NCBI GenBank assembly: GCA_964486045.1
Contig: CAZALK010000005.1
Location: forward strand, 190,713-254,712
Direction of reading: 5' to 3'
DNA from: an uncultured archaeon
GTDB taxonomy: Archaea > Asgardarchaeota > Lokiarchaeia > Sigyniarchaeales > SOKP01
DNA length: 64,000 nt
How positions within the stretch are numbered: the stretch's first letter is position 1; each line of letters starts with the position of its first letter. Positions 4,087 to 48,375 of the stretch are shown piece after piece. The position numbers and the translations under genes are program-made. Under the pieces are notes generated by a model that saw nothing but the letters and a program-made list of their open reading frames with translations, was not told the origin of the DNA and made no database searches.

Positions 4087-5493
4087 TTGAGTGATTTAGA
4101 AGGATTGACTAGAAAGTTAATGGAAAAAGGTTTTAAAAAGGAAGAAATCATTGTAAGGCTTGTTAATGAATATATGGATTTTAAAGACATTGACCAAGAG
4201 TCCGCAACTCTTCTTGCTGCAGCAATTTATGAAGAATGTAAAAAGAGCGATATAATAACTGTTTCAGATCCCTTTATAAGAAATTTGTTAGATATTAATA
4301 TGGCAAATGTAACTATTGGAAAACAAGGAGTGGGTTGTAGAGGATCAGGCGACTTTTTTGTTCATAAACTCGTTGCAGAGTTATCTGAAACAGAAATAAG
4401 GGCATATTTATCACCTAACTCCTTAGATGATGCTGGAGCTGTGAAGATTAGTGATATTGACGGATTTAAAACAGAAGATGATCTAATCATTGTATCTAAA
4501 ATGGAAGGAATTCATAGCCGCTTAAGTGACTTTCCATTCTTGTGTGGTTTTCACGTAAATTCATGTAATGCGTTTGTGTGAAGCGTATCGAGAGCTGCAC
4601 TACGAGATCTCTATGTTAAAGGCGCTAAGCCTATTTCAATAATGGTTGATGTACATCTAGGAGATGATGCAGACGTAGGTAAACTTTTTGATTTTATGGC
4701 AGGTATATCTTCTGTTTCAGAATTAGCAAATGTTCCAATAACAGCAGGTTCAACTTTGAGAATAGGTGGTGATATGGTTATAGGTAATCGATTGGTAGGG
4801 GGTGTAAGTGCTGTAGGTATCTGTACCAACTTATTGGCTAGGAGAAATATTAAAATTGGTGATAAGATACTAATGACTGAGGGAGCTGGTGGAGGTACAA
4901 TAACTACAACAGCGATCTATTCTGGGAATCACAATGTTGTCAAAGAAACAATGAATGTTAAGTTTCTTGAAGCTTGTGAAGTGTTATTAAATTCGGATTA
5001 CCTAAAAGACATTAGTGCTATGTGTGATGTTACAAATGGAGGACTTCGAGGAGATCTCTATGAAATTAACTATGAAGCTAACTGTGGTATGACAATATAT
5101 GAAAATGAGGTAAAAAAACTTGTAAATCTAAACGTTTTAAATCTTTTAGAGAAAGTGCAAGTTGATTATTTAGGTGTTTCTCTTGATGCTCTCCTAATTT
5201 ATTGTTCTGAATCTGCTTCAAAAAAAATTATTTCAGATTTAAAAAGAATAAGTATAAGATGTGCCGAGATTGGTTTCGTGAATGACTCAAAGGAAATATC
5301 CATGATATATTCCGATAAATCGAAAGAAAAAGTCCTTCCACGATTTCGAGAATCGGCATATACAAAAGTTAAACAAGTAATTGGTGAAGAAACTCCAGAA
5401 TTGATTAAAGTAATGGAAAAGAAAATTGAAGTCGCAGCCAACGCTGCTTTAGAAAAGCGTAACAATATTATAAGAATTATCAAAAATCTTTGA
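4087..5493 (+). CDS. AIR synthase/HypE/SelD-superfamily protein, 458 aa after removal of intron 4559-4588
   Basis: ORFs 4087-4581 and 4642-5493 are in the same frame, separated by a 30-nt insert containing TGA. The spliced junction reads FHVTRAALRDLYVKG. Also has the CDVTNGGLRGD motif. Confidence 0.88.
4559..4588 (+). other. BHB mRNA intron, 30 nt
   Basis: Outer helix tgtggttttc/gagagctgca, central helix acgt/gcgt, bulges aaa and atc, inner helix ttcatgtaa/ttgtgtgaa. Cuts aa|a and at|c give cac gta acg aga (HVTR). Confidence 0.9.
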
Positions 5494-5495
5494 TC

Positions 5496-6320
5496 TTAAG
5501 TGAGTGTGAGAACTTCATTCATTGAGCCAGAACGAAATCCTTCTAAATCAATGGTTATATAGTTAAAACCAATTTCCTTGAATTTCTTTTTAATTAAGTT
5601 TAAATTCTCAGATTTAAATATATTTGGTAAATCAACCTGTAAAAGTTCAATACGAGCTAGACCATTCTCATGATGTCTTACTCTTAATTGTGTTAGGTTA
5701 AAAGTTTTTTTCAAAAATCTCTCTCCTTCTCTTATGCGATATAATTTTTCTTCATTTATCTCTTGACCATATGGAACTCTTGAGGAAAAACATGCCATTG
5801 AAGGTTTTGAGTGAACAGATAAGTCAAAATATTTACAAATTTCCCGAATTTCTTGTTTGTTCATATTATATTCAACATATGGCGTGAATATATCTAAATC
5901 TTTCAATGCTTGCATTCCAGGGCGGTAATCTAAGAGATCATCTGCATTTGATCCGTCTAAAATGGTTTCAAAGTTTCTTTCTTTCTTCACTTTTATGATA
6001 TCCTGATAAAGACCAGTTTTACATAAGTAACATCTATTTTCAGGATTACATTGAAATTCTTTGTCGTTTAAAGGATGACGCTCAATAATCTCATGTGGGA
6101 TATTGTGGGAGCTAGCAAATTTACTAGCTTCTTCAATTTCTTCATCAGGATAAAGGATAGATTTTTCGGTTAAAAGTAGAGTTTCTTTAGCATACCGGCT
6201 TGACAGATAAGCTAAAAGTGAACTATCAACTCCTCCAGAAAAAGCCACTAATACTTTTTTTCCACTTAAAAATGAAGTAATATCATTTAACTTCTTTTTT
6301 ACAATGTTCGATAATTCCAT
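5496..6320 (-). CDS. larE: LarE-like ATP-dependent sacrificial sulfur transferase (PP-loop)
   Basis: AFSGGVDS, RCYLCK, DYRPG, KPSMACFSSRVPYG and GFRSGSMN motifs. Confidence 0.85.
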   Translation of the reverse strand: MELSNIVKKKLNDITSFLSGKKVLVAFSGGVDSSLLAYLSSRYAKETLLLTEKSILYPDEEIEEASKFASSHNIPHEIIERHPLNDKEFQCNPENRCYLCKTGLYQDIIKVKKERNFETILDGSNADDLLDYRPGMQALKDLDIFTPYVEYNMNKQEIREICKYFDLSVHSKPSMACFSSRVPYGQEINEEKLYRIREGERFLKKTFNLTQLRVRHHENGLARIELLQVDLPNIFKSENLNLIKKKFKEIGFNYITIDLEGFRSGSMNEVLTLT

Positions 6321-6425
6321 AATATTTACGAATGCCTTAGATAAACTATGTAGATTATTTAACAAAATAAAAATTACGATTATATATTAAAAATTAATCT
6401 CGAATAAATTAAAGAGGTAAAATAA

Positions 6426-7229
6426 TTACCACTTAAAGCTTGGGTTGAAAAATAGGAGAGTGTTAAGCTTCTGTAATGTAATGAAAACTATGACATAATA
6501 CCAACTTAAGGCAGAAAAAAGCATTATCCATTCAAGAAACTGCCTTGTCAATGGTTCTGGGCTAATAAGAAATAATATTGTAGCAGTCGAAGGTCCTAAT
6601 ATCATGAAGTATCCAATGGGTTTTGGAAATAATTTTTTCTTTATGACAATCGCGAGGCCCGTGAAAAAAGCACCAAAAGCAAAACCACCAAATGCTAATG
6701 TAGAGAAGAAATAGTGTATATCAAAGATGGAACGATCTTCACTAAAGACACCAACAAAGAACAATCCAAATATTCCTACTACAAGAAAGACTACACCTGT
6801 ATAACCAAATATTCTTCTAAATTTATTTACATAATGGGTACGCTTCAAATTATCGATATTCTCAACCATAGTTGAACTATACAGCCGATTTAAATTAAGT
6901 ATTAAGGGTACTATAAAGACTGATGAAACAATGCAAGTTATATCGAGTATAAACGGTGCTGGAGTATATTTAATCGACCCTAAATCACTGATGTAATTGA
7001 ACCATATACTATATGGAAGGGGACCAAAATTTAATGCAACAATCAAACCTAAGATTAATCCGGGTAAAAAGGTTGCTAAACTAATGTAAATTGATATCTT
7101 AACAATTTTAGGATCGGTTATTTTGTCGTAAAATTTCCTACCGTTTTGCTTCATCTTTTTGAATTTCGGATTTACAAAAGCAACATAAAACTTATTAAAT
7201 CGTTCCAAATAAGATACCTTTTCACTCAT
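6426..7229 (-). CDS. DUF998-like multi-pass membrane protein
   Basis: NYISDLGS and GVFSED...IH motifs, several TM segments. Confidence 0.65.
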   Translation of the reverse strand: MSEKVSYLERFNKFYVAFVNPKFKKMKQNGRKFYDKITDPKIVKISIYISLATFLPGLILGLIVALNFGPLPYSIWFNYISDLGSIKYTPAPFILDITCIVSSVFIVPLILNLNRLYSSTMVENIDNLKRTHYVNKFRRIFGYTGVVFLVVGIFGLFFVGVFSEDRSIFDIHYFFSTLAFGGFAFGAFFTGLAIVIKKKLFPKPIGYFMILGPSTATILFLISPEPLTRQFLEWIMLFSALSWYYVIVFITLQKLNTLLFFNPSFKW

Positions 7230-7412
7230 TTTATTCCCTCAAATTAGTTAATTTAATCTCCCATTCGTATTAAAGTTATTTTAACTCCGAAATTGAATTC
7301 AATATATTCTTAACCCGTTTTCTTATCTATTTCATATATTTTATATTTATATTTCTATCTTTTTTATCAAATTACGTTTAAAATGGACAGATTTTAAAAA
7401 TACAAAGATTTA

Positions 7413-7430
7413 TATACTATTCATAGTATA
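7413..7430. promoter_or_regulatory. Inverted repeat, probable PadR-family operator
   Basis: tatacta-ttca-tagtata about 65 bp upstream of the PadR gene. Confidence 0.5.
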
Positions 7431-7495
7431 GTATTCATAAGATAATATAAAATAAATACTATATAAAACAAAAATTAGCAAATGAAAAAGAGGAG

Positions 7496-8053
7496 TTGAT
7501 AACAATTATCAAACGTGTAAAGGAATTAGGTTCTGATGCATTAATCGCTTCAAAAAAATTTAGAGATTATGTTGAAAAGCAAGAAACTGAGATTAATAGA
7601 GGAATTAGCTCGCTTTGTATATTATCAACAATTATGCAGTCTGAAGAAAAGGAACTACATGGATACAAAATTTTAAAAGATCTTACAGAAAAGACAAATG
7701 AGATGTTAGTTATCGAGGAAGGAACGCTTTACCCAATATTACGAAAATTAGAACAAGATAATATTATTACATCGAGAAGAGAAGAATCTGGAAGGAAAAG
7801 GAAATTTTATAGCATGACTAATCATGGAAAACAAGTCCTTAATCACCTAGTAGGATTTTATTCGAAATTGACAGAGGCTATCGCGCCTTTATTTGATGTA
7901 AAGGTTGATTTAAAGCAAGAAAAATATTTTTATTGTCCAATGTGTGCCAACAAATTTGAGATTTCATCAATCTCTGAAGAGTTGAAATTTTGTACGATTT
8001 GTGGGTTTAATATTGAACAAGAATTAGAAAAACGAGGTTTAAGAAATGAATGA
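7496..8053 (+). CDS. PadR-family transcriptional regulator with C-terminal zinc ribbon
   Basis: HGYKI...EGTLYPILRKLE...RKRKFYSMT; CPMC...CTICG. Confidence 0.85.
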   Translation: MITIIKRVKELGSDALIASKKFRDYVEKQETEINRGISSLCILSTIMQSEEKELHGYKILKDLTEKTNEMLVIEEGTLYPILRKLEQDNIITSRREESGRKRKFYSMTNHGKQVLNHLVGFYSKLTEAIAPLFDVKVDLKQEKYFYCPMCANKFEISSISEELKFCTICGFNIEQELEKRGLRNE

Positions 8054-9074
8054 AAACGAAATGAATAATATGATTAAAGAATATTTAAAGAATGTAAAAG
8101 ATAAACTCCCCGAATGGCTAAAAGACAAAAAAGAACATGAAGAGATATTGGCTGAACTTGAAGACCATATTTGGAGTAAGGCAGAAGAATTATCGCAAAA
8201 CAGTCAACCCAGTTTAGATTCAGTTCAAATGGCAATTGAGCATATGGGAACACCAGAAAGCATTGGTAAAGAATACAAACGTCGTGGAACCCCAAAAGTT
8301 TACATCACTGAGGAATTGTGGCCATATTACAAAAAAGCTATAGGTGGAGTGTTTTCATTAATATTCGTCATTGTTGTAATAATCCAGGTCGTAAATTTGA
8401 TATTCGGAAACTTTGATTCATTTTGGGATGGAGTAATGGGTTTTCAGATTGGATTACTTATAGCTTTTGCAGTGTTAACCATTATTTTTGTGGCTCTAAG
8501 CCTTGAGGGCTATTTTCCGGAAGATTTCATGTCTGCAAAATCGTTAGATAAGATGAAAGACGAGAAAGGTATAACAGAAGAAAAGGAACGACCTTCAAAA
8601 CCTTTCATAAAGCCAGTAGGAGAAATTATAGGAGGATTGTTTGGTCTTATCATCGGAGTGCTATTCATTGTACAACCTTTTCCATTTTTAACGGCTATTA
8701 TTGACGCAGAGTTTCTTTTATTCCTTCAATTTGCTGGTGCTTTTATGTTGGCAGAAGGAATTATAGATTTAATCCGAGGACTAATAGGAAATAGACAGCT
8801 AAGAATTCATCAAATGATTCATGGTATTCTTATTGTTGTAAAACTTTCTTCAATTTCTGTAGTAATTTTGATGATGAATCGACCAGAAATATTTCCAATA
8901 TTGATTACGAATACCCCAGGGGGTCCACTTATTAATATTGGAATTGTTCCCGGTTTCTATAATATTTTTAGAGCAATAGCAGGTCTTGTAATAGCTGCAG
9001 TCGCACTTAGCACAATTGAAGATTTCTATAGAATATACAAGGCAGAAAAATATCTAAACTTAGAAAATAATTAA
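8046..9074 (+). CDS. Membrane protein with N-terminal HAAS-like domain (usual PadR partner)
   Basis: EYL...EILAELEDHI...MGTPESIGKEY followed by TM helices; overlaps the padR stop. Confidence 0.7.
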   Translation: MNENEMNNMIKEYLKNVKDKLPEWLKDKKEHEEILAELEDHIWSKAEELSQNSQPSLDSVQMAIEHMGTPESIGKEYKRRGTPKVYITEELWPYYKKAIGGVFSLIFVIVVIIQVVNLIFGNFDSFWDGVMGFQIGLLIAFAVLTIIFVALSLEGYFPEDFMSAKSLDKMKDEKGITEEKERPSKPFIKPVGEIIGGLFGLIIGVLFIVQPFPFLTAIIDAEFLLFLQFAGAFMLAEGIIDLIRGLIGNRQLRIHQMIHGILIVVKLSSISVVILMMNRPEIFPILITNTPGGPLINIGIVPGFYNIFRAIAGLVIAAVALSTIEDFYRIYKAEKYLNLENN

Positions 9075-9205
9075 TTATTTTTTTTTTTACTTTTTTTATT
9101 GTTAATGAGTGATTTGAAATTTGGGACTAGTGAGGGTTACTAACCTTTTTAAGCAAATTACATTTACCATTATTATGCTATTTTCAAAAAAAGAGGAGTT
9201 GATGT

Positions 9206-10660
9206 ATGGGGCTTAAAACACGGAACGATTATTTGATAAAAATTAGAAAGATGCGCCCAAATATTTATAAGTTTGGTGAATTGATTGAGGATCTTACCAC
9301 ACATCACGCTACAATGAGAGTAATTGAAAGTCATGCCATGAACTATGATGCCTCTCACGATCAAAAGCTTGAAAAGATATATACAACAAATTCAAGTTTA
9401 ACAGGAGAAAAAATATATCGGTGGAATTCGTTAATTCAAAATTCTGAAGATCTTATCACTAATATGAAATTAAAACGTCAGAATTTTCGGCGGACTGGCT
9501 CATGTACAGGAGCTGTTTGTGTTGGGTGGAACGCACAGAATGTGATGTGGGCAATTACTCAAGAAATGGATAAAGAATACGGCTCAAATTTCCAGGAAAG
9601 GTTAAAAAAGTGGATTATTCATGCTCAAAACGAAGGTTTGACAGTAGCAGGAGCTTTAACTGATGCGAAAGGTGATAGGAGCTTAAAACCTTCAAAACAA
9701 CCAAACTTGGATGCAAATCTAAGAATTGCAAAAGTTCTAGATAATGGAATAATAATTCGTGGAGCTAAATTAATGATAGCGGGTACAGCTGCTTCCCAAG
9801 AAATATTTCTTCTTCCTGGAGCGATTTACAAAGAGTCTGACAAAGATTACGCATTAGCTTGCGTTTTACCAAGAGATACAGAAGGCTTAACAATAATTGA
9901 AGCAACCCGTCCTAGTGATCAGCGGGATTTAGATGATAATTCAGGCTTTGAAGTACCTAACACTGGTCCAACTCAAGGTCTTTTATTTTTTGAAGATGTA
10001 TTTGTACCTATTGATCGAGTTTTTATGTGTGGAGAATATAAATATACTTCTAAGCTCATTCAATATTTCACAGCCAATTATCGGGCCTGTATTGGAGCTT
10101 GTGTTTCTGGGCAAGGAGATGTAATGATTGGAGCTTCAGTTTTAATGGCTCGAGCCAATGGTTTATCTTCAAAGACCTTTATGAACAAACTAGTTGATAT
10201 GTCAATAAACAATCAAATTAATTACGGTTTAGGTGCAGGAGCCTGTGCTATGGGAACAAAACATGCTTCTGGTGCATTTTTTGCTGATCCCTTAACTGCT
10301 CATACAAATAAGGTTATGGTCGCAAAATTACCTTATGAGACTAAAAGGCTTACACAAGAAATTGGTGGGGGAATTGTAGAAACGGGATGTATGCCGTCTT
10401 ATAAAGATTTTAATGGGGCAGAATATAGCGATATGGTCCGAAAATACTATAAAGCAGGTAATTGCTCTCCAGAAACTCGATATAAAATTGCGAGACTATC
10501 GGAATGGCTTACCATTGGTGGCGGTGTACCTGGTTGTATGCATGGAGGAGGTTCTCCTGATGGGGCTAGATTAGTTGTTAGGTTCAATACGCCTTTTGAT
10601 GAGTATGTGGATTATGCTAGAAAAATCATGAATATTGAAGAAGACGTTCCTGAACCTTAA
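9206..10660 (+). CDS. 4-hydroxybutyryl-CoA dehydratase / HpaB family protein
   Basis: GALTDAKGDRS, IIRGAK and CMHGGGSP motifs. Confidence 0.85.
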   Translation: MGLKTRNDYLIKIRKMRPNIYKFGELIEDLTTHHATMRVIESHAMNYDASHDQKLEKIYTTNSSLTGEKIYRWNSLIQNSEDLITNMKLKRQNFRRTGSCTGAVCVGWNAQNVMWAITQEMDKEYGSNFQERLKKWIIHAQNEGLTVAGALTDAKGDRSLKPSKQPNLDANLRIAKVLDNGIIIRGAKLMIAGTAASQEIFLLPGAIYKESDKDYALACVLPRDTEGLTIIEATRPSDQRDLDDNSGFEVPNTGPTQGLLFFEDVFVPIDRVFMCGEYKYTSKLIQYFTANYRACIGACVSGQGDVMIGASVLMARANGLSSKTFMNKLVDMSINNQINYGLGAGACAMGTKHASGAFFADPLTAHTNKVMVAKLPYETKRLTQEIGGGIVETGCMPSYKDFNGAEYSDMVRKYYKAGNCSPETRYKIARLSEWLTIGGGVPGCMHGGGSPDGARLVVRFNTPFDEYVDYARKIMNIEEDVPEP

Positions 10661-10786
10661 AAACCAAGTACCCCTTTAATGCCGATCATTCAGTTAACAG
10701 AAATCCAGTTAATCATAAACTATATTGAGGTTTACTAATTAATAAAAGTATTTGAATGTCTAGTCAAAAAATTTTTACTACAATTT

Positions 10787-12205
10787 ATGGGAAATAAAAT
10801 AGAATCTCTAAAGGAAAGTCTTCATCGAAGGTCATTTGGAGTTCATTTAACTTCGAGTGATATATTCTTGAAGTTTATCTTTCCTATAATAAAAGAAAAA
10901 TTATGGGACTATAGATGGATTGATCTATATGCCGGAGAAGGAAATTTGATCTTACCCATCCTGGATTCAATCCCCCCCGAAGATAGGGTGCGTTTTTTTA
11001 AAAACCACATTTACTTATCTGATATACAAGAGGAGATGCTGGAAAAATGTATTAAAAAAGCGGAGGTTTATGGTATTCCTAATGAAGTAGCTTCTAGTAA
11101 TATAAATCTACGAGATAATCTTGGAAGTTTTCCTGATTTTTTAAGAAATAGCCAACATCCGGTATTCCATATAACAAATCCACCATACCTCTACCTAGGA
11201 TATATTAGAAAACATAATGAAACTCAAAAATATTTAAAACTTTTTGAAGGAAGGAATGAGGGATATCAAGATTTATATCAAATCGCAATGATAAACGATT
11301 TAAAAAATGATGTTGACGACCTCATATATATTATCCCTTCGAATTTTTTGTTTGGTGCTTCTGTTTCTAATAAGTTCCGCAAAGATTTCTTAAAATTTTA
11401 TAAAATTAATCAAATGATAATATTCGAGACGAAGATATTCGAGTTTACAGGAACAAACATCTGTATTGGTTTTTTTGAAAAGAAAAGAATCCCTAAATCA
11501 GAGATTGCAAAATTTTATGGTGTTAAATTTAAAAAGCAAAATGAAGAAATAAAAAAAACATATATTCTTAAACCAAAATATAAATATCGTGCTGGTTCTG
11601 AATTCAACGAATTCCTTGAAGAAAGTCGAGTAAATACCCGATTGAATATTAACTATTATTTATTAAAGAAAGAATTAATGAATAATAAAGGAACTAATAA
11701 ATTAAGTGTGATAGATGCTAATAACTATAAAAATAGTAGTTATAATAGATTAAACATTCGAGTAAATGATAATTTAAAGAGCAAAATAGAATCTAATATA
11801 TTATATGTTCGAACAGTTGATACTGGTTCAATAGATGGCAGAGTTGGATTAGGAATAATTACAGAAGATTTTAATGTTAATGGTATATATGTATCTGGAA
11901 ATACATACAGAACTCATCCTATCCAAATATTTTTTGAACCTGAAATATCGCATAATAAGCAAATATTGTTGAAAAATTATTTCAATTTATTATTAGAATC
12001 GTTTAGGAAAAAGTTAGATAGTGAGTTTCTCACAACCTATAAATATTCTAAAGCGGAGTATACGAGAAAGTATCTTGGGTTAACTCAGGTCAGAAAACTA
12101 ATACAAACTTTCCCGTATAAAAAGTTGAATCAAAATTTTATAGAAAAATTGATTAAATATATTGATAAAAAAGACTTAGAGAGATTAAAAGAATTATTTT
12201 CTTAA
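10787..12205 (+). CDS. N6-adenine DNA methyltransferase (NPPY), no adjacent endonuclease
   Basis: DLYAGEGN (motif I), ITNPPY (motif IV), YIIPSNFL. Confidence 0.8.
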   Translation: MGNKIESLKESLHRRSFGVHLTSSDIFLKFIFPIIKEKLWDYRWIDLYAGEGNLILPILDSIPPEDRVRFFKNHIYLSDIQEEMLEKCIKKAEVYGIPNEVASSNINLRDNLGSFPDFLRNSQHPVFHITNPPYLYLGYIRKHNETQKYLKLFEGRNEGYQDLYQIAMINDLKNDVDDLIYIIPSNFLFGASVSNKFRKDFLKFYKINQMIIFETKIFEFTGTNICIGFFEKKRIPKSEIAKFYGVKFKKQNEEIKKTYILKPKYKYRAGSEFNEFLEESRVNTRLNINYYLLKKELMNNKGTNKLSVIDANNYKNSSYNRLNIRVNDNLKSKIESNILYVRTVDTGSIDGRVGLGIITEDFNVNGIYVSGNTYRTHPIQIFFEPEISHNKQILLKNYFNLLLESFRKKLDSEFLTTYKYSKAEYTRKYLGLTQVRKLIQTFPYKKLNQNFIEKLIKYIDKKDLERLKELFS

Positions 12206-13077: not shown

Positions 13078-13100
13078 AGTCAGTATCCACGCAAAATATT

Positions 13101-40977: not shown

Positions 40978-41035
40978 GTTTAAATTTTTAAAACATACTA
41001 ATATAATGTAAAATAATTGGTTAAGAGTTAAGACT

Positions 41036-41244
41036 ATGACTGAATATAAAAGGACTAAATGCCCAAAATGTAACAATGAGAATCCACGCATGCTCCATGA
41101 TGAACCCGATAAGAGTAATATTCTTTACTACAGTATTGGAAACGTTATTTAAACTTTCCGCTGAAGCAGGGTACTCCAGTTTATGCGCGCATCATAAAAT
41201 GTGGCGACTGTGGAACCACTTTTTCTAAATCTGCTACGGCATAA
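41036..41244 (+). CDS. 59-aa zinc-finger protein after removal of intron 41137-41165 (absent from the ORF track)
   Basis: Spliced product MTEYKRTKCPKCNNENPRMLHDEPDKSNILYYSMQGTPVYARIIKCGDCGTTFSKSATA joins two CxxC knuckles. Confidence 0.8.
41137..41165 (+). other. BHB/BHL mRNA intron, 29 nt
   Basis: Central helix cagt/gctg, bulges att and aag, inner helix ggaaa/tttcc. Cuts at|t and aa|g create agt ATG cag. Confidence 0.82.
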
Positions 41245-41343
41245 AATAACATTAGAGAGATTAAACTATAGGTAATATAACCTAATCATAAGAAAGATAA
41301 GGTTTTTCCCTTCTTTTTTTAATTCTTTTTTATATGAAAGGAG

Positions 41344-42096
41344 TTAAATACTAAAATTTAATAAGTTCAGAATTTCTCTAAGTTTAGTAATATTTATTTG
41401 ACCTGGTGCTGTTTTTTCTGAATAGGAACTATATGTTAAAAAAGAATTGCTAAAATTACATAAAATTCTTGAAAATAATCCCTGATCACCCATGCAAAAG
41501 GAGATTATTCTTAATTTCTTGCTAGATTTTGTTTTGCATAGTTGTAAAGGGACTAAATTATCTTCAAAAGATTGTGCTGTAAATATAAGTTTAAAGATGC
41601 CTTTTTCTATTATCTTGTGGTCAATAAGCAACTCATTTTTCAACTTATTCAAAAAAATTTCTAAGGATTTGATAGCTTCACCGTAAGTAGGAGTTCTTTC
41701 AAAATCGTGTACAGAATAAATTAGGTTTACTTTATTATTTGAAGCTATTTGAATTATTTCGCTTAAAATACTGCTTTCTGTGTTAATTTCAATATCAAAA
41801 TATCGTGGTCCTGATTCGATTAGAAGTTTCATTATTTGAACTCGCTCACTGACATCAATTTCTAACTGCCCACCTTCAGAGCGATCTCTTAACGTACATA
41901 TCACTGGAATTTTGGGTTGAATTCGATTTAAAAGACTTACTACAAAGTCTTTTGTAATTTTTTGAATTTCAGTCATATAATCTAATCTTAATTCGATTAA
42001 ATTTGGGTTTAGCTCTACAACTTTTTTAATAGTAGGAGCGATTTCGCTGATATTTATAGATTTAACTGGAATCGGCACACAAATATTGTATTTCAT
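41344..42096 (-). CDS. aroD: Type I 3-dehydroquinate dehydratase
   Basis: IELRLD, TLRDRSEGG, SVHDF and TAPGQ motifs. Confidence 0.9.
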   Translation of the reverse strand: MKYNICVPIPVKSINISEIAPTIKKVVELNPNLIELRLDYMTEIQKITKDFVVSLLNRIQPKIPVICTLRDRSEGGQLEIDVSERVQIMKLLIESGPRYFDIEINTESSILSEIIQIASNNKVNLIYSVHDFERTPTYGEAIKSLEIFLNKLKNELLIDHKIIEKGIFKLIFTAQSFEDNLVPLQLCKTKSSKKLRIISFCMGDQGLFSRILCNFSNSFLTYSSYSEKTAPGQINITKLREILNLLNFSI

Positions 42097-42122
42097 GATA
42101 AAAAACAAACACATTAATAAAA

Positions 42123-42796
42123 TTAAATTTCTACTATTTCTTTTATATCTTCTTCTGTGAACTTTAAGGTGTTTTCAGCATTTACCTTTTTGATCTTATC
42201 CATTTCATCATAGTATTTAATTATTGGTTCAGCGTTTGCTTCATAAGCATCTAACCTGTTTTTGAGCGTTTCTTCATTATCATCACTTCTTTGTTGAAAC
42301 TTTATTTCTGAATCGCATTTATCACATAAACCTTCTACCTTAGGCGGGAGAGTATATTTGTTGTATAGTTTTCCACAGTTAGGACAGGAGTATCTACCTA
42401 AAATTCTTTTCATAATTAACTCTCTTGGGACTTCTAGGAGAAGTAATAAATCGATTTCGGTTATACTTGTTAATGCTTTTGCTTGGGAGATTGTACGAGG
42501 GAAACCATCAAGAATGAAACCTTCTGCCTTCACATCTTCCCTAGTTAGCCGATCTCGTACTATATCGATGGTTACATCATCAGGAACAAGTTCTCCCTTG
42601 TCCATATAGCTTTTTGCTTTTAATCCTAAAGGTGTTTCATTTTTTAGGTTTTCTCTAAATATATCTCCTGTACTGATATGGATAATATCTGGTAATACTT
42701 TTTTGATTTGCCCGGAAAATGTACCTTTTCTGGATTTTGGGACGCTCCCTAAAATTTTCCAGCCCCGGGGGGTCCAAATAATATTAATTTTTTCAT
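42123..42796 (-). CDS. adk: Adenylate kinase (bacterial type, Zn-LID), 214 aa after removal of intron 42728-42756
   Basis: Spliced N-terminus MKKLILFGPPGAGKGTFSGQI; HISTGDIFR, GELVPD, LDGFPRT, CPNC..CDKC and QRSDD motifs. Confidence 0.93.
42728..42756 (-). other. BHB/BHL mRNA intron, 29 nt, inside the adk P-loop
   Basis: Sense strand ctgg AAA atttt-a-ggga-gcg-tccc-aaaat ccag AAA. Cutting aa|a in both bulges gives gct gga aaa ggt (AGKG). Confidence 0.9.
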
Positions 42797-42880
42797 TTCG
42801 AGCTTCCTTATTAATTATATAAATATTTAGATTAGACATCTAAAATAATTAAAGAGATAAATTAATACATTAAAAAAAAC

Positions 42881-43468
42881 TTAACCCGTGAAATAAGATT
42901 TTTCAACTTCTTTTATTAAATTTTCTACCCTTCTCTTTTCTCTCCTGCTAAATAGTTTAGCAAAATCCCGTTTTATGGAGGAACCATAATAAGAGTTTCC
43001 AAAAAAGGTTTTAGATTTTTCAATTGCCGTTAATAGTGATTCTTTCCTTCCAACATGAAGATATATCGAAATGTCATTAATAATGAGCACGGGGGTTGGT
43101 TTTTCATTGAACAAATTAAGTATTTTAGATGTCTTCTTATAATTTTCACATGCATTTTGATAAACCTCTTTTTCATTGTTGGCTTTTAGTCGCGGTGGTA
43201 TAATTTCTCCTTTATATAAGATATTGTTACATTTATTAGCTCCATCGTAAAAATCCTGAATTTTGCCACCGAATTTCAAATTATTTATCATACTTAAGGG
43301 GGGGGCAAAATCTAAGATGCTAATTTCTTTTGGATGAACTTTATTTAACTCTACAAGAAATTGAATAAAATTTGAAGCAAAATAAGTCTTTTTAGTATTA
43401 GTTTCTCCATATAATAGTGTGTGGTGGTCGATTAAGTCGTTGAAATTTAAATTTTCGAGAAAAATCAT
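42881..43468 (-). CDS. Hypothetical protein, degenerate P-loop NTPase-like
   Basis: LLYGETNTKKT, LDFAP and LIINDISIYLH motifs. Confidence 0.6.
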   Translation of the reverse strand: MIFLENLNFNDLIDHHTLLYGETNTKKTYFASNFIQFLVELNKVHPKEISILDFAPPLSMINNLKFGGKIQDFYDGANKCNNILYKGEIIPPRLKANNEKEVYQNACENYKKTSKILNLFNEKPTPVLIINDISIYLHVGRKESLLTAIEKSKTFFGNSYYGSSIKRDFAKLFSRREKRRVENLIKEVEKSYFTG

Positions 43469-43494
43469 AAAATTAGAAATATTCTATTTTATTT

Positions 43495-44046
43495 TTAAAA
43501 AAAGTCTTCTCTGTTTATATTTGCTTTCTTTAATGCTAAAAGAATTATAAAACCAATAATACTCCCAGGAATACAACTAGCCGCAAATAATCCCCACCAA
43601 GTAAATAAACCTTCAATACCCCCTATTGGTGCAATTAACTGAGCGATCGTTCCCCCTATAAAGACTGTTCCAATTGGTTCAAATAAGGCAGCAAGTTCTA
43701 CATATTTAGGTGATTTTTTCCATAATAAGTATGCTACTAATCCTACAACAACCGCTCCAGACATCCCTCCATGAAAAGCATGAATTGAGCCTATTGTTAA
43801 TGAAAATCTAAGTACTGCTATTGTTGAAGCAGTAATTAATGCAAAGATAGTGCCTACTAAAACACCCATAATTGCATTGACAATGTGTGCAAAAGGATTA
43901 ATCCTCGCACCAAATATTGTGAAGTAAGCAAATGGATTTAAATAACTTAAGACAAGCCCAACTCCTACCATGATAGCTGAAGTTGCAACTCTTTTGGATA
44001 TACCAGTTCGTAATATTTTTTTCCCACTTAATTCATTAGTACTCAT
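43495..44046 (-). CDS. thiW: ECF transporter S-component ThiW
   Basis: PFAHIVNAIMGVLVG and EPIGT motifs; next to thiN. Confidence 0.85.
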   Translation of the reverse strand: MSTNELSGKKILRTGISKRVATSAIMVGVGLVLSYLNPFAYFTIFGARINPFAHIVNAIMGVLVGTIFALITASTIAVLRFSLTIGSIHAFHGGMSGAVVVGLVAYLLWKKSPKYVELAALFEPIGTVFIGGTIAQLIAPIGGIEGLFTWWGLFAASCIPGSIIGFIILLALKKANINREDFF

Positions 44047-44120
44047 TTTAAAAAAACCTAATAGATTGTATTTTCATTTTTTTCTAGTTTAATTTAATTT
44101 AAAAGGTTTAGGGTATCTCT

Positions 44121-44711
44121 TTAAATTATTTTGATAATTTTTTCTAGTTTTTTAATTATATCACGTGAATCCCTTCCAAATACACGGATCATTGGTTCTT
44201 TACCAATAGATCCCTTGTCCCAAATAATATCTGGAATCCTCCCATTCTTCTCTAAACTCTCCTTAATTAACCACTGCATTGTTGAAAATTCTTTATCTTT
44301 TGTTTCTTGGGGTTCAGCCTCTCGGAAAATTTCTATTAACATTAAATCTGTTTTTTCTTTAATCTTTTTTATTATTTCAGGTGTGAATTTCAGGTTCATA
44401 ACAAAATTTATTGATTTATCAAATGATTTTGCTGTAAGTACCAATCTGGCTGTGTGTTCAGCAACCCCAAATCTAATTTCTCCAGCAGCTTTAGGCATTC
44501 CATCTACAATAGTAATCCTTCCATCAATACCTGCCACATCTTCCCTTCTCGTGGCATTAAATAAAGCCCCAGCAATATTTGTACGTACTTCGGGTATTAA
44601 ATTACAAAATTTCTTAAGTTGAATAAAATTATAGATCTCTTTTATTTGGTTTATAATTCTTAATTTTTCGTCAGTAATTGCTGCTTCTAAGGGCTTATTG
44701 CCATCCATCAA
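44121..44711 (-). CDS. thiN: Thiamine-phosphate synthase ThiN domain protein
   Basis: LIPEVRTN, DVAGIDGRI and DKGSIGKEPM motifs. Confidence 0.85.
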   Translation of the reverse strand: MMDGNKPLEAAITDEKLRIINQIKEIYNFIQLKKFCNLIPEVRTNIAGALFNATRREDVAGIDGRITIVDGMPKAAGEIRFGVAEHTARLVLTAKSFDKSINFVMNLKFTPEIIKKIKEKTDLMLIEIFREAEPQETKDKEFSTMQWLIKESLEKNGRIPDIIWDKGSIGKEPMIRVFGRDSRDIIKKLEKIIKII

Positions 44712-44779
44712 ATCTATAAGTAATATTAGCTTATTTAATTTATCGTTTATTCATATATTTGTAGGAAGAGCATAATTTT

Positions 44780-45469
44780 ATGATAACAATAGGAGATTTT
44801 ACAATAAGCCCAACAAAGATCATTTGTTTAGGTATAAATTACATGGATCACATCGAAGAGACTAATATGAAAATACCGGAAGAGCCATTACTCTTTCCAA
44901 AAACACTTAATTGCCTAATTACAAATAACCAACCAATTTTATACCCAAAATACTTATATAATAATAGACGATATAATCGGGTTGATTACGAAGTAGAATT
45001 GGCGTTTATTGTGAAAGATAAATGCAAGGATATATCAGCGAGTGACGTATACAATCATATCTTAGGATACACCGTTTTTAACGACGTGACCGCTCGTAAA
45101 ATGCAAACAAAGGATATAACTTCCCAAAAACCGTGGTTTCGTTCTAAGTCATTTGACACATTCGGACCAATCGGCCCCGTAATTAAAAAAGTTAATGAAA
45201 TCAATGATCCCCATAATCTTAATATTGAATTAAGGGTAAATGGAGAGTTAAAACAATCTTCAAATACAAAATATTTATTATTTAAGATTCCTGAAACTTT
45301 TGAGTATATTAGCCGACTTTTTACTATGGAACCAGGTGATATAATTGCTACAGGTACTCCTGCAGGGATAGGACCTGTTAAACCTGGAGATTTAATTGAA
45401 GCAACGATAGAAAATATTGGTACTCTAGCAAATAAAGTAATTCTAGAAGGAGAAGAAGAGAATTTATGA
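44780..45469 (+). CDS. Fumarylacetoacetate hydrolase family protein
   Basis: KIICLGINY, DYEVEL, NDVTAR and GDIIATGTP motifs. Confidence 0.92.
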   Translation: MITIGDFTISPTKIICLGINYMDHIEETNMKIPEEPLLFPKTLNCLITNNQPILYPKYLYNNRRYNRVDYEVELAFIVKDKCKDISASDVYNHILGYTVFNDVTARKMQTKDITSQKPWFRSKSFDTFGPIGPVIKKVNEINDPHNLNIELRVNGELKQSSNTKYLLFKIPETFEYISRLFTMEPGDIIATGTPAGIGPVKPGDLIEATIENIGTLANKVILEGEEENL

Positions 45470-46143
45470 GAATTGGTAAAACTGACATTGCACCAACCAA
45501 AATTATATGTATAGGTCGTAACTATTTAGAACATGCTAAAGAACTAAATTCTCCTATACCTACTGAGCCAGTTTTTTTCGTTAAGACGCTAAACTCAATT
45601 ATAACTGATGGAAACCCAATAATTTATCCCAGAATTTTATATGAAAATGATGAATTCAACAGAGTAGATCATGAAGTAGAACTTGCTTTTATTATGCAGA
45701 AGACATGTAAAAAAATTTCATCTGCTAAAGCTTGTGATTTTATTCAGGGATTTTCTATTTTTTTAGATATAACTGCTAGAAAAATGCAAATTTTAGATAG
45801 AAACAGAAATTTACCTTGGTATCGAAGTAAGAATTTTGATACATTCTCGGTTATAGGTCCTCGCGTAGTTCCTCTAAATGAAATTAAAGATCCTCATAAT
45901 CTTAATATTGAATTAAAAGTTAATGGAGTAATAAAGCAATCATCTAACACAAAACACATGATTTTTAAAATTCCAAGAATTATGGAATATTTATCCAGCT
46001 TTTTAACTCTCGAAAAAGGAGACATTATAGCAACAGGTACACCAAGCGGGGTTGGACCAATTCAACCGGGAAATATTATTGAAGCCTCAATAGAAAATAT
46101 TGGGACAATTACTCATCAAGTCGTTTTAGAAAGAGAAGATTAA
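45466..46143 (+). CDS. Fumarylacetoacetate hydrolase family protein (tandem paralog)
   Basis: Same motifs as the upstream copy; 4-bp overlap. Confidence 0.92.
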   Translation: MRIGKTDIAPTKIICIGRNYLEHAKELNSPIPTEPVFFVKTLNSIITDGNPIIYPRILYENDEFNRVDHEVELAFIMQKTCKKISSAKACDFIQGFSIFLDITARKMQILDRNRNLPWYRSKNFDTFSVIGPRVVPLNEIKDPHNLNIELKVNGVIKQSSNTKHMIFKIPRIMEYLSSFLTLEKGDIIATGTPSGVGPIQPGNIIEASIENIGTITHQVVLERED

Positions 46144-46249
46144 GAAATCTTTTGCTTTCATAGTCTAGCATCAACCCTTATTTTTCATTACGACATATAT
46201 TTAAATTTTTATTTTTTCTATTAAACAAAAGAATAACTCAAATTCAAAA

Positions 46250-47428
46250 ATGCTAAAGAAAGTTTTAATTGCTTCGGAATCGGCATTTCGTAGAACTCTT
46301 CTTTCTGAAATGATTGCATCTCACAAGGAAATAGTGATAGTTGGTAATGTAAGGAACGATAGTGAAGCAATCGATGTAATAAAAAAAAAAAATCCACATG
46401 TTTTAATTTTAGATATTGAATTTGATAATAAGGATTGGTATACACAGTTCTATCCCATTGTGAAATTTTATCTCATTAGTACTATTGTTTTGACTGACGT
46501 CAATCCTAAAAACATTGATGTATTTGAAGTTCCGATTCTATTAAAATCCTATGATTATATTTTGAAGCCCAATGGGATTTGGAAGGATGAATTACCTAAA
46601 ATTAAGGAAAACATATTTTCAAAAATTTTAATGGTGGATATTCCTAAAATTCATAAAATTGATAATAAGACAAGAATAATGAATAAAAATGTTTTTATTC
46701 GCCAAAGTCAGAAATTAAGGATACAAGAATCAACTAGATCGAGTCAGATTGAAGACACAAGAATAAAAACAGAAATTAATCCAGAACTTAAACCAACTAT
46801 TGAACCACGGTTAGAAGAATATTTCTTAGAATTCGCTCCAGTTACCTTTACTAAATTAGAAACCAAAATAGTGGTAATTGGTGCTAGTGTGGGGGGTCCT
46901 AGAACACTAAGATTAATATTAAGTGAAATTCCTAGATACTTTTCAGCCCCCATTTTAGTTGTACAACATTTAAATCATTTTTTTATGAGACAATTTGTTG
47001 TTTCTTTAAAAGCTGTTTGCAAAGCGAATGTAAAAATGGGCAATAATTATGAAGAAATTCATCCGGGAACCATTTACTTTTCCCCTGGGGATAAGCATAT
47101 GCAAGTCACAGTAAAGAATAATAAACCTTGTATTAGGACATTTGAAGGTGAACCCATAAATTTCTGTAGACCTTCTGTTGATGTTTTATTCTATTCAACT
47201 GCTAGAATTTTTAAGAATAAAGCACTTGGAGTTTTGCTAACTGGAATGGGAAAAGATGGGGTTGCGGGACTTCATGCAATTAAATATGAAAGAGGTAGAA
47301 CTATAGCTGAATCCGAAGAGACAAGTATTCTATATGGTATGCCAAAAGCAGCAGCAGAAACTGGTGCTGCAGATTTAGTTATCCCAAATTATAAAATTAT
47401 TGATGAAATAATAAAATTTGTGAATTAA
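46250..47428 (+). CDS. cheB: CheB-like methylesterase with degenerate receiver domain
   Basis: GASVGGP, VVQH, RPSVDVLF, LTGMGKDG and YGMP motifs; the receiver acidic pocket reads ASES. Confidence 0.85.
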   Translation: MLKKVLIASESAFRRTLLSEMIASHKEIVIVGNVRNDSEAIDVIKKKNPHVLILDIEFDNKDWYTQFYPIVKFYLISTIVLTDVNPKNIDVFEVPILLKSYDYILKPNGIWKDELPKIKENIFSKILMVDIPKIHKIDNKTRIMNKNVFIRQSQKLRIQESTRSSQIEDTRIKTEINPELKPTIEPRLEEYFLEFAPVTFTKLETKIVVIGASVGGPRTLRLILSEIPRYFSAPILVVQHLNHFFMRQFVVSLKAVCKANVKMGNNYEEIHPGTIYFSPGDKHMQVTVKNNKPCIRTFEGEPINFCRPSVDVLFYSTARIFKNKALGVLLTGMGKDGVAGLHAIKYERGRTIAESEETSILYGMPKAAAETGAADLVIPNYKIIDEIIKFVN

Positions 47429-47459
47429 ATTTTTTATAAGTGACTACTTTTAATAAATC

Positions 47460-47645
47460 ATGGAACCATCAGTAAGTGAGGAATCTAAAAAAGAAATTCT
47501 GAAATTAATCTCAACCCCGGGTATTGAAATTGAAGATATTGTAAAAAAGGTTGGATTAGATTATAAACTAGTAATGAATTTCTTATCTGACGAATTCCTA
47601 AAATATAATTTTGATTATGGCAGAAGAATCTGTTGTAGGTTTTAA
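47460..47645 (+). CDS. Small hypothetical HTH-like protein
   Basis: 61 aa with an HTH-like PGIEIEDIVKKVGLDY segment. Confidence 0.5.
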   Translation: MEPSVSEESKKEILKLISTPGIEIEDIVKKVGLDYKLVMNFLSDEFLKYNFDYGRRICCRF

Positions 47646-47709
47646 AGCAAGTTCATTATAATAAAACTTATTAATTCTCAATTATTTTATAGTTCACTAA
47701 GTTCATAAC

Positions 47710-47809
47710 ATTTTAAAGGACTTAGGACGCAAATTAAAGCGGTTTCGATATACTCTATATATTGAAGTGAGTTGTTATAATCTTGATTTAGCGTTCTTAG
47801 TCTTAAATG
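47710..47809 (+). promoter_or_regulatory. Long hairpin upstream of the uL11-uL1-uL10-P1 operon
   Basis: Nested pairings aggact/agtctt, aggacgc/gcgttct, aaattaa/ttgattt and ttcgatata/tatattgaa. Confidence 0.55.
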
Positions 47810-47849
47810 ATTTTGAATTTAAAATTACTAGAAAAAGTAGTGAGATTAT

Positions 47850-48375
47850 GTGAGTGAAAAAGGAAAAGTTGTTGTAATGGCTCTTGTAACTGGTGGTAGT
47901 GCATCAGGAGGGCCACCCATTGGACCCGCAGTTGGACCTACAGGCATAAACGTAAATCACCTCGATTATTGATGTATACATTAAAGATGTTGTTGACGAA
48001 ATAAATAGTCAAACAATGGTCTTTAAGGGTTTAACTGTACCGGTAAGAATAGAATGTGATCCCGAAACAAAACAATTTAAGATATTTGTTGAAACTCCTT
48101 CCACAGCATCATTATTACTTAAGGAGACTGGAGTAGAAAAGGGGAGCTCATCATGTTCAGAAGAAAAAATTGGTGATCTAACGATTGAGCAGGTTGTTGG
48201 TGTCGTTGAAGCAAAGAAAGGAAAGTTTTTAGATAAAACGTTTAAATCTGCTGTTAAAACAGCTCTAGGGACTGCATTATCTATAGGAATTACAGTTGAA
48301 GGTGAAGACCCCAGAGAAATTCAAAAAAAATTAGAAAATGGAGAATTTGATGACAAAATCAAAGGTGTATTGTAA
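47850..48375 (+). CDS. rpl11: 50S ribosomal protein uL11, 165 aa after removal of intron 47950-47977
   Basis: GTG start; MSEKGKVVVMALVTGGSASGGPPIGPAVGPTGIN|IKDVVDEINSQTMVFKG. The ORF track shows only the 3' exon. Confidence 0.93.
47950..47977 (+). other. BHB/BHL mRNA intron, 28 nt
   Basis: Central helix gcat/atgt, bulges aaa and ata, inner pairs cg/tg and aatc/gatt. Cuts aa|a and at|a give ggc ata aac att aaa (GINIK). Confidence 0.85.

What the first reader, a model, noticed from the sequence alone, without database searches (positions are those of the whole stretch)
4087..48375. Dense system of BHB (tRNA-endonuclease-type) introns in protein-coding genes of an Asgard-like archaeon
Seen in sequence: four unrelated genes among about 60 (AIR-synthase-like, small Zn-finger, adk, uL11) each carry a 28-30 nt insert. 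Each folds into a 4-bp helix flanked by two 3-nt bulges plus an intron hairpin. Cutting after the second nucleotide of each bulge restores the frame to the base in all four, and restores the known motif in adk, uL11 and the AIR-synthase-like gene. Established: that geometry and cut rule belong to archaeal splicing endonuclease EndA with RtcB ligation, and the textbook mRNA example is essentially cbf5 in some Crenarchaeota. Inference: this organism splices many mRNAs with the tRNA machinery, at about one intron per 16 kb here, and standard annotation would miscall these genes as pseudogenes. In-frame introns lacking stops would have been missed, so four is a minimum.
Basis: partly seen in the sequence, partly recalled or inferred. 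Interest (0 to 1): 0.97.

Follow-up and report, generated by a model that had tools for sequence, protein, structure and literature searches.

The report
tRNA-type mini-introns in Asgard protein genes
Four ordinary protein genes of this Asgard (Promethearchaeota) archaeon, including ribosomal protein uL11 and adenylate kinase, are each interrupted by a 28-30-base insert shaped like an archaeal tRNA intron, so their mRNAs probably have to be cut and rejoined by the tRNA-splicing enzymes, which was known before for essentially one archaeal protein gene (cbf5).

Summary
Observation confirmed.

- Each fits a 4-bp helix with two 3-nt bulges and an intron hairpin.
- A motif-free alignment with the closest congener shows that the only indels of 25 nt or more in about 58 kb are the AIR, adk and uL11 inserts.
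- The Zn-ribbon insert is kept at 29 nt in 30 of 30 congeners, with compensatory stem changes.
- Intron-less alleles pin both cuts to after the second nucleotide of each bulge.
- The genome encodes an alpha/beta EndA pair and one RtcB.
- At least four more such introns lie elsewhere in the genome: RNA polymerase A', a BcrAD-type ATPase, and TrpD-like and SelD-like genes.
- Presence or absence flips between sister genomes. One congener has three introns in uL11.

No RNA data could be examined, so splicing itself is inferred.

The local density of 1 per 16 kb does not hold genome-wide. In another 462 kb aligned to the same congener I found one such difference.

This scan has already reported single BHB mRNA introns in other Asgard genomes (radA, cbf5, EF-1alpha) and many candidates in other windows of this genome. 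I found no publication on it.

The parts
4087..4558 (+). AIR-synthase-like gene, exon 1. It ends ...CACGUAA; the last 6 nt are H5 (ACGU) plus the first 2 nt of the 5' bulge.
   Evidence: Open frame. tblastn shows continuity with 80 related loci.
4559..4588 (+). 30-nt BHB intron of the full hBHBh' type: 6-bp outer helix, ACGU/GCGU central helix, bulges AAA and AUC, 9-bp hairpin. It contains an in-frame TGA at 4579-4581.
   Evidence: Absent from G013. Among related loci, 61 have no insert, 15 have 30 nt and 4 have 29 nt at the same site. Covariation: 93.9% of cells paired, 5 of 13 pairs compensatory.
4589..5493 (+). AIR-synthase-like gene, exon 2 (AIRS plus AIRS_C domains). The junction codon A|CG encodes Thr.
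   Evidence: Pfam. Intron-less alleles carry a single codon here, ACN in most, GCN or TCG in a few.
41036..41136 (+). Small Zn-ribbon gene, exon 1 (first CxxC pair). It ends ...CAGUAU.
41137..41165 (+). 29-nt frame-shifting BHB (HBh') intron: CAGU/GCUG helix, bulges AUU and AAG, bulged hairpin.
   Evidence: The MFE is the BHB fold. Present at a constant 29 nt in 30 of 30 congeners aligned. 97.7% of cells paired, 7 of 11 pairs with compensatory changes, 0 of 500 shuffles reach this.
41166..41244 (+). Zn-ribbon gene, exon 2 (second CxxC pair). The junction codon AU|G encodes Met.
   Evidence: The exonic bulge positions are invariant.
42757..42796 (-). adk exon 1 (MKKLILFGPPGAG plus the first base of the Lys codon).
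42728..42756 (-). 29-nt frame-shifting BHB (HBh') intron inside the P-loop: CUGG/CCAG helix, bulges AAA and AAA, hairpin with a GGGA/UCCC tip.
   Evidence: An exact 29-nt indel against G013. 27 of 29 congeners lack it; G020 has a different 30-nt insert at the same site.
42123..42727 (-). adk exon 2 (ADK plus ADK_lid domains).
   Evidence: Pfam ADK matched from profile position 10.
47850..47949 (+). uL11 exon 1 (GTG start; ...GPPIGPAVGPTGI plus the first base of the Asn codon).
   Evidence: Pfam Ribosomal_L11_N positions 3-25.
47950..47977 (+). 28-nt frame-shifting BHB (HBh') intron, 'site A': GCAU/AUGU helix, bulges AAA and AUA. The hairpin is weak in this genome.
   Evidence: An exact 28-nt indel against G013. 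A homologous intron occurs in 9 of 24 congeners with 95.4% of cells paired.
47978..48375 (+). uL11 exon 2.
   Evidence: Pfam Ribosomal_L11_N positions 27-58 plus the Ribosomal_L11 domain.

Best explanation
These are archaeal bulge-helix-bulge introns in pre-mRNAs, mostly of the relaxed HBh' type. After transcription, the last four bases of exon 1 (two bases upstream of the splice site) pair with four bases near the 3' end of the insert. The rest of the insert forms a hairpin stacked on that helix, which leaves a 3-nt bulge on each strand. The heteromeric (alpha-beta)2 splicing endonuclease EndA cuts after the second nucleotide of each bulge. RtcB then joins the exons and probably circularises the 27-32-nt intron. 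Only the spliced mRNA encodes the full protein. The introns are heritable but are gained, lost or exchanged quickly among congeners.

Shown here: the geometry, its conservation and covariation, the exact cut positions deduced from intron-less alleles, the presence of the enzymes, and the occurrence in several unrelated single-copy essential genes.

Inferred: that EndA and RtcB actually do the cutting and joining in vivo.
For: 1. Geometry is present in all four inserts, and BHB-constrained folds are near the MFE.

2. A motif-free comparison with the closest congener gives exact 28-, 29- and 30-nt indels at uL11, adk and AIR. There are no other indels of 25 nt or more in about 58 kb.

3. The Zn-ribbon insert is 29 nt, so it shifts the frame, in 30 of 30 congeners, while both exons stay conserved at the protein level. 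97.7% of cells are paired, 7 of 11 pairs show compensatory changes, and 0 of 500 shuffles reach this.

4. The AIR insert is 30 nt in 15 related loci and 29 nt, frame-shifting, in 4 others. 93.9% of cells are paired and 5 of 13 pairs are compensatory.

5. The cut rule is pinned down independently.
   - Only 'after bulge nucleotide 2' gives Thr (ACG) in AIR and Asn in uL11, as in the intron-less alleles.
   - Bulge positions predicted to be exonic are invariant or nearly so, while the third position of the 5' bulge, predicted to be intronic, is the most variable.

6. The enzymes are encoded.
   - The C7 paralog aligns over residues 47-201 to the tRNA-splicing endonuclease chain 3p1z_B, keeps the catalytic Tyr, His and Lys, and keeps the loop region.
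   - The C10 paralog lacks the catalytic His.
   - There is one RtcB.
   - Asgard EndA is reported to be the (alpha-beta)2 type with the L1 loop that confers broad specificity (PMC5829648).

7. The genes are single-copy and essential.

8. The same thing occurs elsewhere in the genome.
   - RNA polymerase A': Rpb1_1 profile positions 2-73 in exon 1 and 74-202 in exon 2.
   - BcrAD_BadFG ATPase: profile positions 1-135 and 137-271.
   - TrpD-like and SelD-like genes.
   - There is a decoy-controlled excess of frame-restoring strong BHBs only in the 26-34-nt class: 14 against 2 and 7 in the two decoy frames.

9. tRNA genes of this genome are heavily interrupted by introns that include the same size class.
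Against: Three of the four introns lack the outer exon-exon helix, so they depend on a broad-specificity enzyme whose activity has not been tested for this lineage.

The window's own uL11 intron has a poor hairpin (two mismatches, -1.6 kcal/mol) and may be spliced inefficiently.

The ORF-fusion census has high background, so the genome-wide number is poorly known.
Confidence: 0.85

Rival explanations
1. The inserts are removed or skipped by something other than EndA. One option is another structure-specific RNase plus a ligase that recognises the hairpin. The other is ribosomal bypassing (hopping) over the hairpin, as in phage T4 gene 60.
For: Each insert has a stable hairpin with a stop codon soon after the 5' junction. 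In adk, a hop from AAA to AAA would give the same protein. No RNA data exist.
Against: In the Zn-ribbon gene and in AIR the junction lies inside a codon (AU|G and A|CG), which hopping cannot produce. uL11 has no matching take-off and landing codons. The conserved elements are exactly the BHB ones: the 4-bp helix formed with exon 1 and two 3-nt bulges with the exonic positions fixed. A hairpin recognised alone would not require these.
Confidence: 0.07
2. The four genes are pseudogenes, or are decaying after random small insertions.
For: Read literally, three are frame-shifted and one has an in-frame stop. Automatic annotation would call them broken.
Against: uL11, adk and RNA polymerase A' are single-copy essential genes. 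The exons carry no other defects. The frame-shifting Zn-ribbon insert persists in 30 genomes, with mostly silent exon changes and compensatory stem changes. Random insertions would not share a length class and BHB geometry.
Confidence: 0.03
3. The inserts are assembly or sequencing artefacts of this MAG.
For: The genome is a metagenome-assembled draft with 45 contigs and 7.8% contamination. I could not lay reads on it.
Against: Homologous inserts at the same sites occur in many independently assembled MAGs from different studies and in single-contig genomes. Examples are site A of uL11 in G006, and AIR in 19 GenBank MAGs from several projects.
Confidence: 0.01

Closest known systems
cbf5 pre-mRNA intron of Crenarchaeota (Aeropyrum, Sulfolobus, Desulfurococcales; Watanabe 2002, Yoshinari 2006, Yokobori 2009 = PMC2738675)
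   Same: [quoted passage not shown] It is removed by the hetero-oligomeric splicing endonuclease and shows gain and loss among relatives.
   Different: That case is one gene in thermophilic Crenarchaeota. Here at least eight unrelated genes in one Asgard genome are affected (four in this window), including uL11, adk and RNA polymerase A'. One gene in a congener has up to three introns, the size class is narrow (27-32 nt), and presence or absence flips between sister genomes.
Non-canonical (HBh'/BHL) tRNA introns of TACK and Asgard archaea, including the heavily interrupted Asgard tRNA genes (bioRxiv 10.64898/2026.10.13.758758; PMC5829648)
   Same: The same motif, a size class that overlaps with this genome's tRNA introns, the same presumed enzymes, and repeated gains. 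tRNA introns of 32-33 nt are also polymorphic between this genome and its congeners.
   Different: The host RNA is an mRNA. No tRNA body helps recognition, and the excised length has to preserve a reading frame.
HAC1/XBP1 unconventional mRNA splicing (IRE1 cut, RtcB ligation)
   Same: A short frame-changing intron (26 nt in XBP1) is removed from an mRNA by a protein endonuclease acting on an RNA structure, and the exons are joined by RtcB without a spliceosome.
   Different: The nuclease is different (IRE1, twin 7-nt loops), the splicing is regulated by stress, and it is eukaryotic. No IRE1 is expected in this organism.
Translational bypassing (T4 gene 60)
   Same: A short non-coding gap containing a hairpin and an early stop codon sits inside an essential ORF.
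   Different: Bypassing needs matching take-off and landing codons at codon boundaries. Three of the four junctions here do not allow that.

Membership tests
Archaeal BHB (EndA-dependent) intron | A central 4-bp helix flanked by two 3-nt bulges on opposite strands | tested here: met
   Explicit pairing in all four inserts. The helix is paired in 98.7-100% of cells in the three intron families aligned.
Archaeal BHB (EndA-dependent) intron | Flanking helices h (exon-exon) and h' (intron), required for the strict hBHBh' form | tested here: inconclusive
   h' is present in all four, though weak in this genome's uL11. The outer helix h is present only in AIR (6 bp). The other three are the relaxed HBh' type, which per PMC5829648 only the (alpha-beta)2 or epsilon2 enzymes cut.
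Archaeal BHB (EndA-dependent) intron | Cuts at symmetric positions in the two bulges give a functional exon junction | tested here: met
   Cutting after bulge nucleotide 2 restores the frame in all four and reproduces the residues of intron-less alleles. The conservation pattern of the bulge columns agrees.
Archaeal BHB (EndA-dependent) intron | The structure is maintained in evolution (covariation) | tested here: met
   Zn-ribbon: 7 of 11 pairs compensatory. AIR: 5 of 13. uL11 site A: 2 of 12, with 95.4% of cells paired. Controls with slid partners give 16-52% paired.
Archaeal BHB (EndA-dependent) intron | The host encodes a splicing endonuclease able to cut relaxed motifs, and an RtcB ligase | tested here: met
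   There are two EndA paralogs. One has Tyr, His and Lys plus the loop region and aligns to the tRNA-splicing endonuclease chain 3p1z_B. The other lacks the catalytic His. There is one RtcB at 557 bits.
Archaeal BHB (EndA-dependent) intron | Spliced RNA or an excised (circular) intron observed; cleavage by EndA in vitro | not testable with these tools
Group I / group II self-splicing introns | A ribozyme core of hundreds of nucleotides | tested here: not met
   The inserts are 28-30 nt. Rfam finds only one tRNA in the window.
Programmed translational bypass | Matching take-off and landing codons at codon boundaries | tested here: not met
   This is possible only in adk (AAA to AAA). The Zn-ribbon and AIR junctions split codons, and uL11 has no codon match.

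The most novel reading that the evidence does not exclude
In this Promethearchaeota genus, BHB micro-introns behave as a dynamic, possibly mobile population that colonises protein-coding genes as well as tRNAs. Three observations point that way:
- The first 35 codons of uL11 have been hit at three different sites, and one genome carries all three.
- The same adk P-loop site carries unrelated hairpins in two genomes.
- Sister genomes differ in presence or absence, with about 8 state changes for one site on a 24-genome tree.

This would be a spliceosome-independent, protein-enzyme-based 'genes in pieces' system operating on essential mRNAs in the closest prokaryotic relatives of eukaryotes. It might also couple expression of core transcription and translation genes to EndA/RtcB activity.
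Probability: 0.45. Interest if true: 0.93.

Novelty: new variant of a known kind. Interest (0 to 1): 0.86.

Why it matters
Endonuclease-spliced introns in archaeal protein genes have been a curiosity confined essentially to cbf5. Here they interrupt several unrelated, essential, single-copy genes in an Asgard archaeon and turn over rapidly between close relatives.

If RNA data confirm this, several things follow:
1. Gene callers systematically mis-annotate such genes in Asgard MAGs as pseudogenes or truncated proteins. That affects completeness estimates, phylogenomic markers (uL11, RNAP A', EF-1alpha, radA) and metabolic reconstructions.
2. EndA and RtcB become part of mRNA expression in these organisms.
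3. The debate on the origin of interrupted genes gains a concrete case that is open to experiment: intron proliferation without a spliceosome in the lineage nearest to eukaryotes.
4. The polymorphism across about 50 congeners offers a natural data set for how BHB introns are gained and precisely lost.

Tried and rejected
**Genome-wide ORF-fusion census** (BHB motif plus restored ORF, with frame-shifted excision as decoy).
- Background from neighbouring genes and off-frame ORFs is as large as the signal.
- A significant excess appears only for 26-34-nt inserts with strong hairpins (14 against 2 and 7).
- With a no-start-codon filter the count is 35 against 18 and 21.
- No reliable total could be derived.
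- Two top candidates proved to be adjacent genes: SdhA/SdhB and the end of HgdD.

**Are the introns a repeated mobile sequence family?** blastn-short of the insert sequences against the genome: the hits inspected (those of the AIR query) were its own locus and chance matches of 21 nt or less. There is no sequence-level repeat family.

**Further in-frame, stop-free introns in the window.** A structural scan gave 72 hits that cannot be told from chance, so the search was inconclusive.

**Motif-free sampling elsewhere in the genome.**
- In 72 kb of random chunks against G013 and G062 there were no mRNA-intron indels and three tRNA-intron indels.
- In 462 kb against G013, only the RNAP A' intron was found.
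- Extrapolating the window's density to the whole genome is therefore rejected.
- Introns shared with G013, like the Zn-ribbon one, are invisible to this test.

**Literature.** Seven full-text searches found no paper on BHB introns in Asgard mRNAs. The library lacks most subscription journals.

**Other readings rejected:** selenocysteine or read-through for the in-frame TGA in AIR (the 10 extra codons are absent from 61 homologs, and four relatives have a 29-nt version), inteins, and group I/II introns.

Full report
**What is there**

The window is low-GC (about 31%) DNA. It comes from a 5.18-Mb, 45-contig genome, G000:C5:190713-254712. Its close relatives are GenBank MAGs, most labelled Promethearchaeota, the Asgard phylum formerly called Lokiarchaeota. 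A marine-sediment metagenome run holds 99% of the sampled words of the stretch searched.

| Gene | Coordinates | Length | Note |
|---|---|---|---|
| AIR-synthase-like | 4559-4588 | 30 nt | same frame on both sides, in-frame TGA |
| CxxC...CxxC zinc ribbon | 41137-41165 | 29 nt | one CxxC pair in each exon |
| adk | 42756-42728, minus strand | 29 nt | inside the P-loop, GAGK\|GT |
| uL11 | 47950-47977 | 28 nt | between GIN and IK |

Pfam shows that each interrupted family continues across its gap. Ribosomal_L11_N positions 3-25 lie in exon 1 and 27-58 in exon 2. ADK is matched from position 10 in exon 2, and AIRS plus AIRS_C lie in exon 2.

**Geometry**

The arrangement is the same in all four. 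Four exon-1 bases, ending two bases before the splice site, pair with four bases near the 3' end of the insert. The three bases after each strand of this helix are unpaired. The interior of the insert is a hairpin directly adjacent to the helix.

- With the helix and bulges imposed, the folds lie 0.3-1.5 kcal/mol from the MFE.
- For the Zn-ribbon gene and adk the MFE is essentially this fold.
- AIR also has a 6-bp exon-exon outer helix, so it is a full hBHBh' motif.
- The other three are HBh' motifs.
- The window's own uL11 hairpin is poor.

**More than chance, and not an artefact**

A blastn alignment of the window with the syntenic contig of the closest congener (G013, about 80% nucleotide identity) was made without any reference to the motif. 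The only indels of 25 nt or more in about 58 kb are the uL11 insert (28 nt), the adk insert (29 nt) and the AIR insert (30 nt, which the aligner split into 10 + 9 + 11). All three are present here and absent there.

The Zn-ribbon insert is shared. It occurs at the same site and at exactly 29 nt in all 30 congeners aligned. This length shifts the frame, yet both exons remain conserved. The homologous inserts occur in many independently assembled MAGs, including single-contig genomes, which rules out an assembly artefact.

**Structure is under selection**

| Intron family | Sequences | Cells paired | Pairs with compensatory change | Shuffles reaching this | Slid-partner controls |
|---|---|---|---|---|---|
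| Zn-ribbon | 30 | 97.7% | 7 of 11 | 0 of 500 | 16-52% paired |
| AIR | 20 | 93.9% | 5 of 13 | at most 1 of 500 on four of the five measures | 25-51% paired |
| uL11 site A | 9 | 95.4% (central helix 100%) | 2 of 12 | 9 of 500 (cells paired) | 25-49% paired |

**Where the cuts fall**

The intron-less alleles give an independent test of the cut positions.

- In 61 of 80 related loci the AIR gene has a single codon at the site, ACN (Thr) in most and GCN or TCG in a few.
- Intron-less congeners read uL11 as GIN-IK and adk as GAGKGT.
- Cutting after nucleotide 1 or 3 of each bulge would give Ser or Lys in AIR. Cutting after nucleotide 0 or 1 would give Tyr in uL11.
- Only 'after nucleotide 2' gives both Thr and Asn.

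The alignments agree with this. The bulge positions predicted to be exonic are the first two of the 5' bulge and the last of the 3' bulge. They are invariant or nearly so, while the third position of the 5' bulge, predicted to be intronic, is the most variable. From my own knowledge, this is the rule established for archaeal EndA.

Four relatives carry a 29-nt version of the AIR insert. That version would shift the frame unless it is excised.

**Machinery**

The genome has two EndA paralogs and one RtcB.

- The C7 protein aligns over residues 47-201 to 3p1z_B, a tRNA-splicing endonuclease (by my recollection the alpha subunit of the Aeropyrum pernix enzyme). It has the catalytic Tyr, His and Lys, and the region of the Crenarchaea-specific (L1) loop is conserved.
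- The C10 protein has Ser where the catalytic His should be, so it looks like a structural beta subunit.

This matches the published statement that Asgard archaea have (alpha-beta)2 EndA with the L1 insert, the type able to cut relaxed motifs (PMC5829648).

**Beyond the window**

I ran a genome-wide scan for BHB motifs whose excision fuses two open frames, using frame-shifted excision as a decoy. Its background is high. It shows an excess only for 26-34-nt inserts with strong hairpins: 14 against 2 and 7 in the decoy frames. There is no excess at 36-54 nt. A no-start-codon filter gives 35 against 18 and 21.

Pfam continuity verified four more cases:
- RNA polymerase A', C13:44101-44130: Rpb1_1 positions 2-73 and 74-202, junction GHFGH|IELARP.
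- A BcrAD_BadFG ATPase, C7:54809-54835: positions 1-135 and 137-271.
- A TrpD-like gene.
- A SelD-like gene.

Two other candidates were simply adjacent genes.

Motif-free comparison with G013 over another 462 kb found only the RNAP A' intron as a clean BHB difference. In 72 kb of random chunks there were no mRNA-intron differences and three 32-33-nt tRNA-intron differences. The window is therefore unusually rich, and 1 per 16 kb is not the genome-wide density. Introns shared with G013 escape this test. I can vouch for at least eight in this genome, and the true number is unknown.

**Dynamics**

Among 24 congeners, uL11 carries an intron at three different sites:
- site A (GIN|IK) in nine genomes;
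- site B (PPI|GPA) in three;
- site C (TGG|SAS) in three;
- none in eleven;
- G005 carries all three.

On a tree of the uL11-L1-L10 region, site A needs about eight state changes, and sister pairs differ in state. That tree comes from one 1.7-kb region with a midpoint root, so it is indicative only.

adk is intron-less in 27 of 29 congeners. G020 has a different 30-nt hairpin at the same site. G017 has a second 30-nt insert in the Zn-ribbon gene. In the hits I inspected (those of the AIR query), the inserts have no sequence copies elsewhere in the genome. If they are mobile, they do not spread as a repeat family.

**Rival explanations**

- Pseudogenes: excluded by the single-copy essential status of the genes, the intact exons, and 30-genome conservation of a frame-shifting insert.
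- Assembly error: excluded by recurrence in independent assemblies.
- Ribosomal hopping: would work only for adk, because the other junctions split codons or lack matching codons.
- Another nuclease: cannot be excluded without biochemistry, but what is conserved is specifically the BHB.

**Comparison with what is known, and novelty**

The mechanism class is that of the crenarchaeal cbf5 pre-mRNA intron (PMC2738675) and of non-canonical tRNA introns. A 2026 preprint describes heavy interruption of Asgard tRNA genes (10.64898/2026.10.13.758758) but treats protein-coding genes only as synteny anchors.

Seven full-text searches found nothing on BHB introns in Asgard mRNAs. The library is incomplete, so this is not proof of novelty.

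Within this scan, follow-ups have already reported single cases in other Asgard genomes (radA, cbf5, EF-1alpha), and first-stage notes list many candidates in other windows of this genome. I tested two of those myself: RNAP A', confirmed by Pfam continuity and by its absence from G013, and selD2, which is only consistent (adjacent Pfam domains on either side of the insert).

**Verdict**

The missing piece is RNA-level proof.

Noticed in passing
window 54094-54192 (-): A tRNA gene spans 99 nt against a 71-position Rfam model. ARAGORN misreads it as having a 4-nt anticodon. It probably carries an intron of about 28 nt at a non-canonical position.
   Followed up: partly
whole genome (G000): ARAGORN finds only 31 tRNAs. 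Twenty of them are called intron-containing, and several are mistyped as Pyl, Stop or SeC. This suggests heavy non-canonical interruption of the tRNA genes, in line with the 2026 preprint on Asgard tRNA introns.
   Followed up: partly
L179:4390-4422 (G000:C1, about 604.4 kb); L217:3355-3386 (G062); L216:2004-2036 (G013): Three 32-33-nt indels between this genome and two congeners all lie inside tRNA genes. tRNA introns are therefore polymorphic in the same size class as the mRNA introns.
   Followed up: partly
L007 (G005:C40), about 175 nt upstream of locus position 1501: The uL11 gene of congener G005 carries three mini-introns (sites C, B and A) within its first 35 or so codons.
   Followed up: partly
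L082 (G017:C52), Zn-ribbon gene exon 2: A second 30-nt insert occurs in the Zn-ribbon gene, in this congener only.
   Followed up: no
L053 (G020:C13), adk P-loop: A 30-nt insert with a different hairpin sequence sits at the same adk site as in the window (helix CUGG/CUAG). It is either an independent gain or a strongly diverged homolog.
   Followed up: partly
window 1431-2099 (+) and 4087-4558 (+): The 222-aa ORF at 1431-2099 shares a near-identical coding segment (around 1836-1867 against 4336-4367) with the N-terminal part of the AIR-synthase-like gene. It appears to be a paralog of that N-terminal region, which has no Pfam match.
   Followed up: no
window 54274-54664: This segment aligns to G013 in inverted orientation relative to its flanks (85% identity). 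It is a small inversion next to the tRNA gene.
   Followed up: no
window 46250-47428 (+): A CheB-type methylesterase with a receiver domain lies directly upstream of the uL11-uL1-uL10-P1 ribosomal protein cluster.
   Followed up: no
G000:C1:309608 (30 nt) and G000:C4:4252 (32-33 nt): These are clean single-block insertions relative to G013, in the intron size class, that did not fit my BHB definition. They are unexplained; they could be 10-aa protein indels or introns with another geometry.
   Followed up: no
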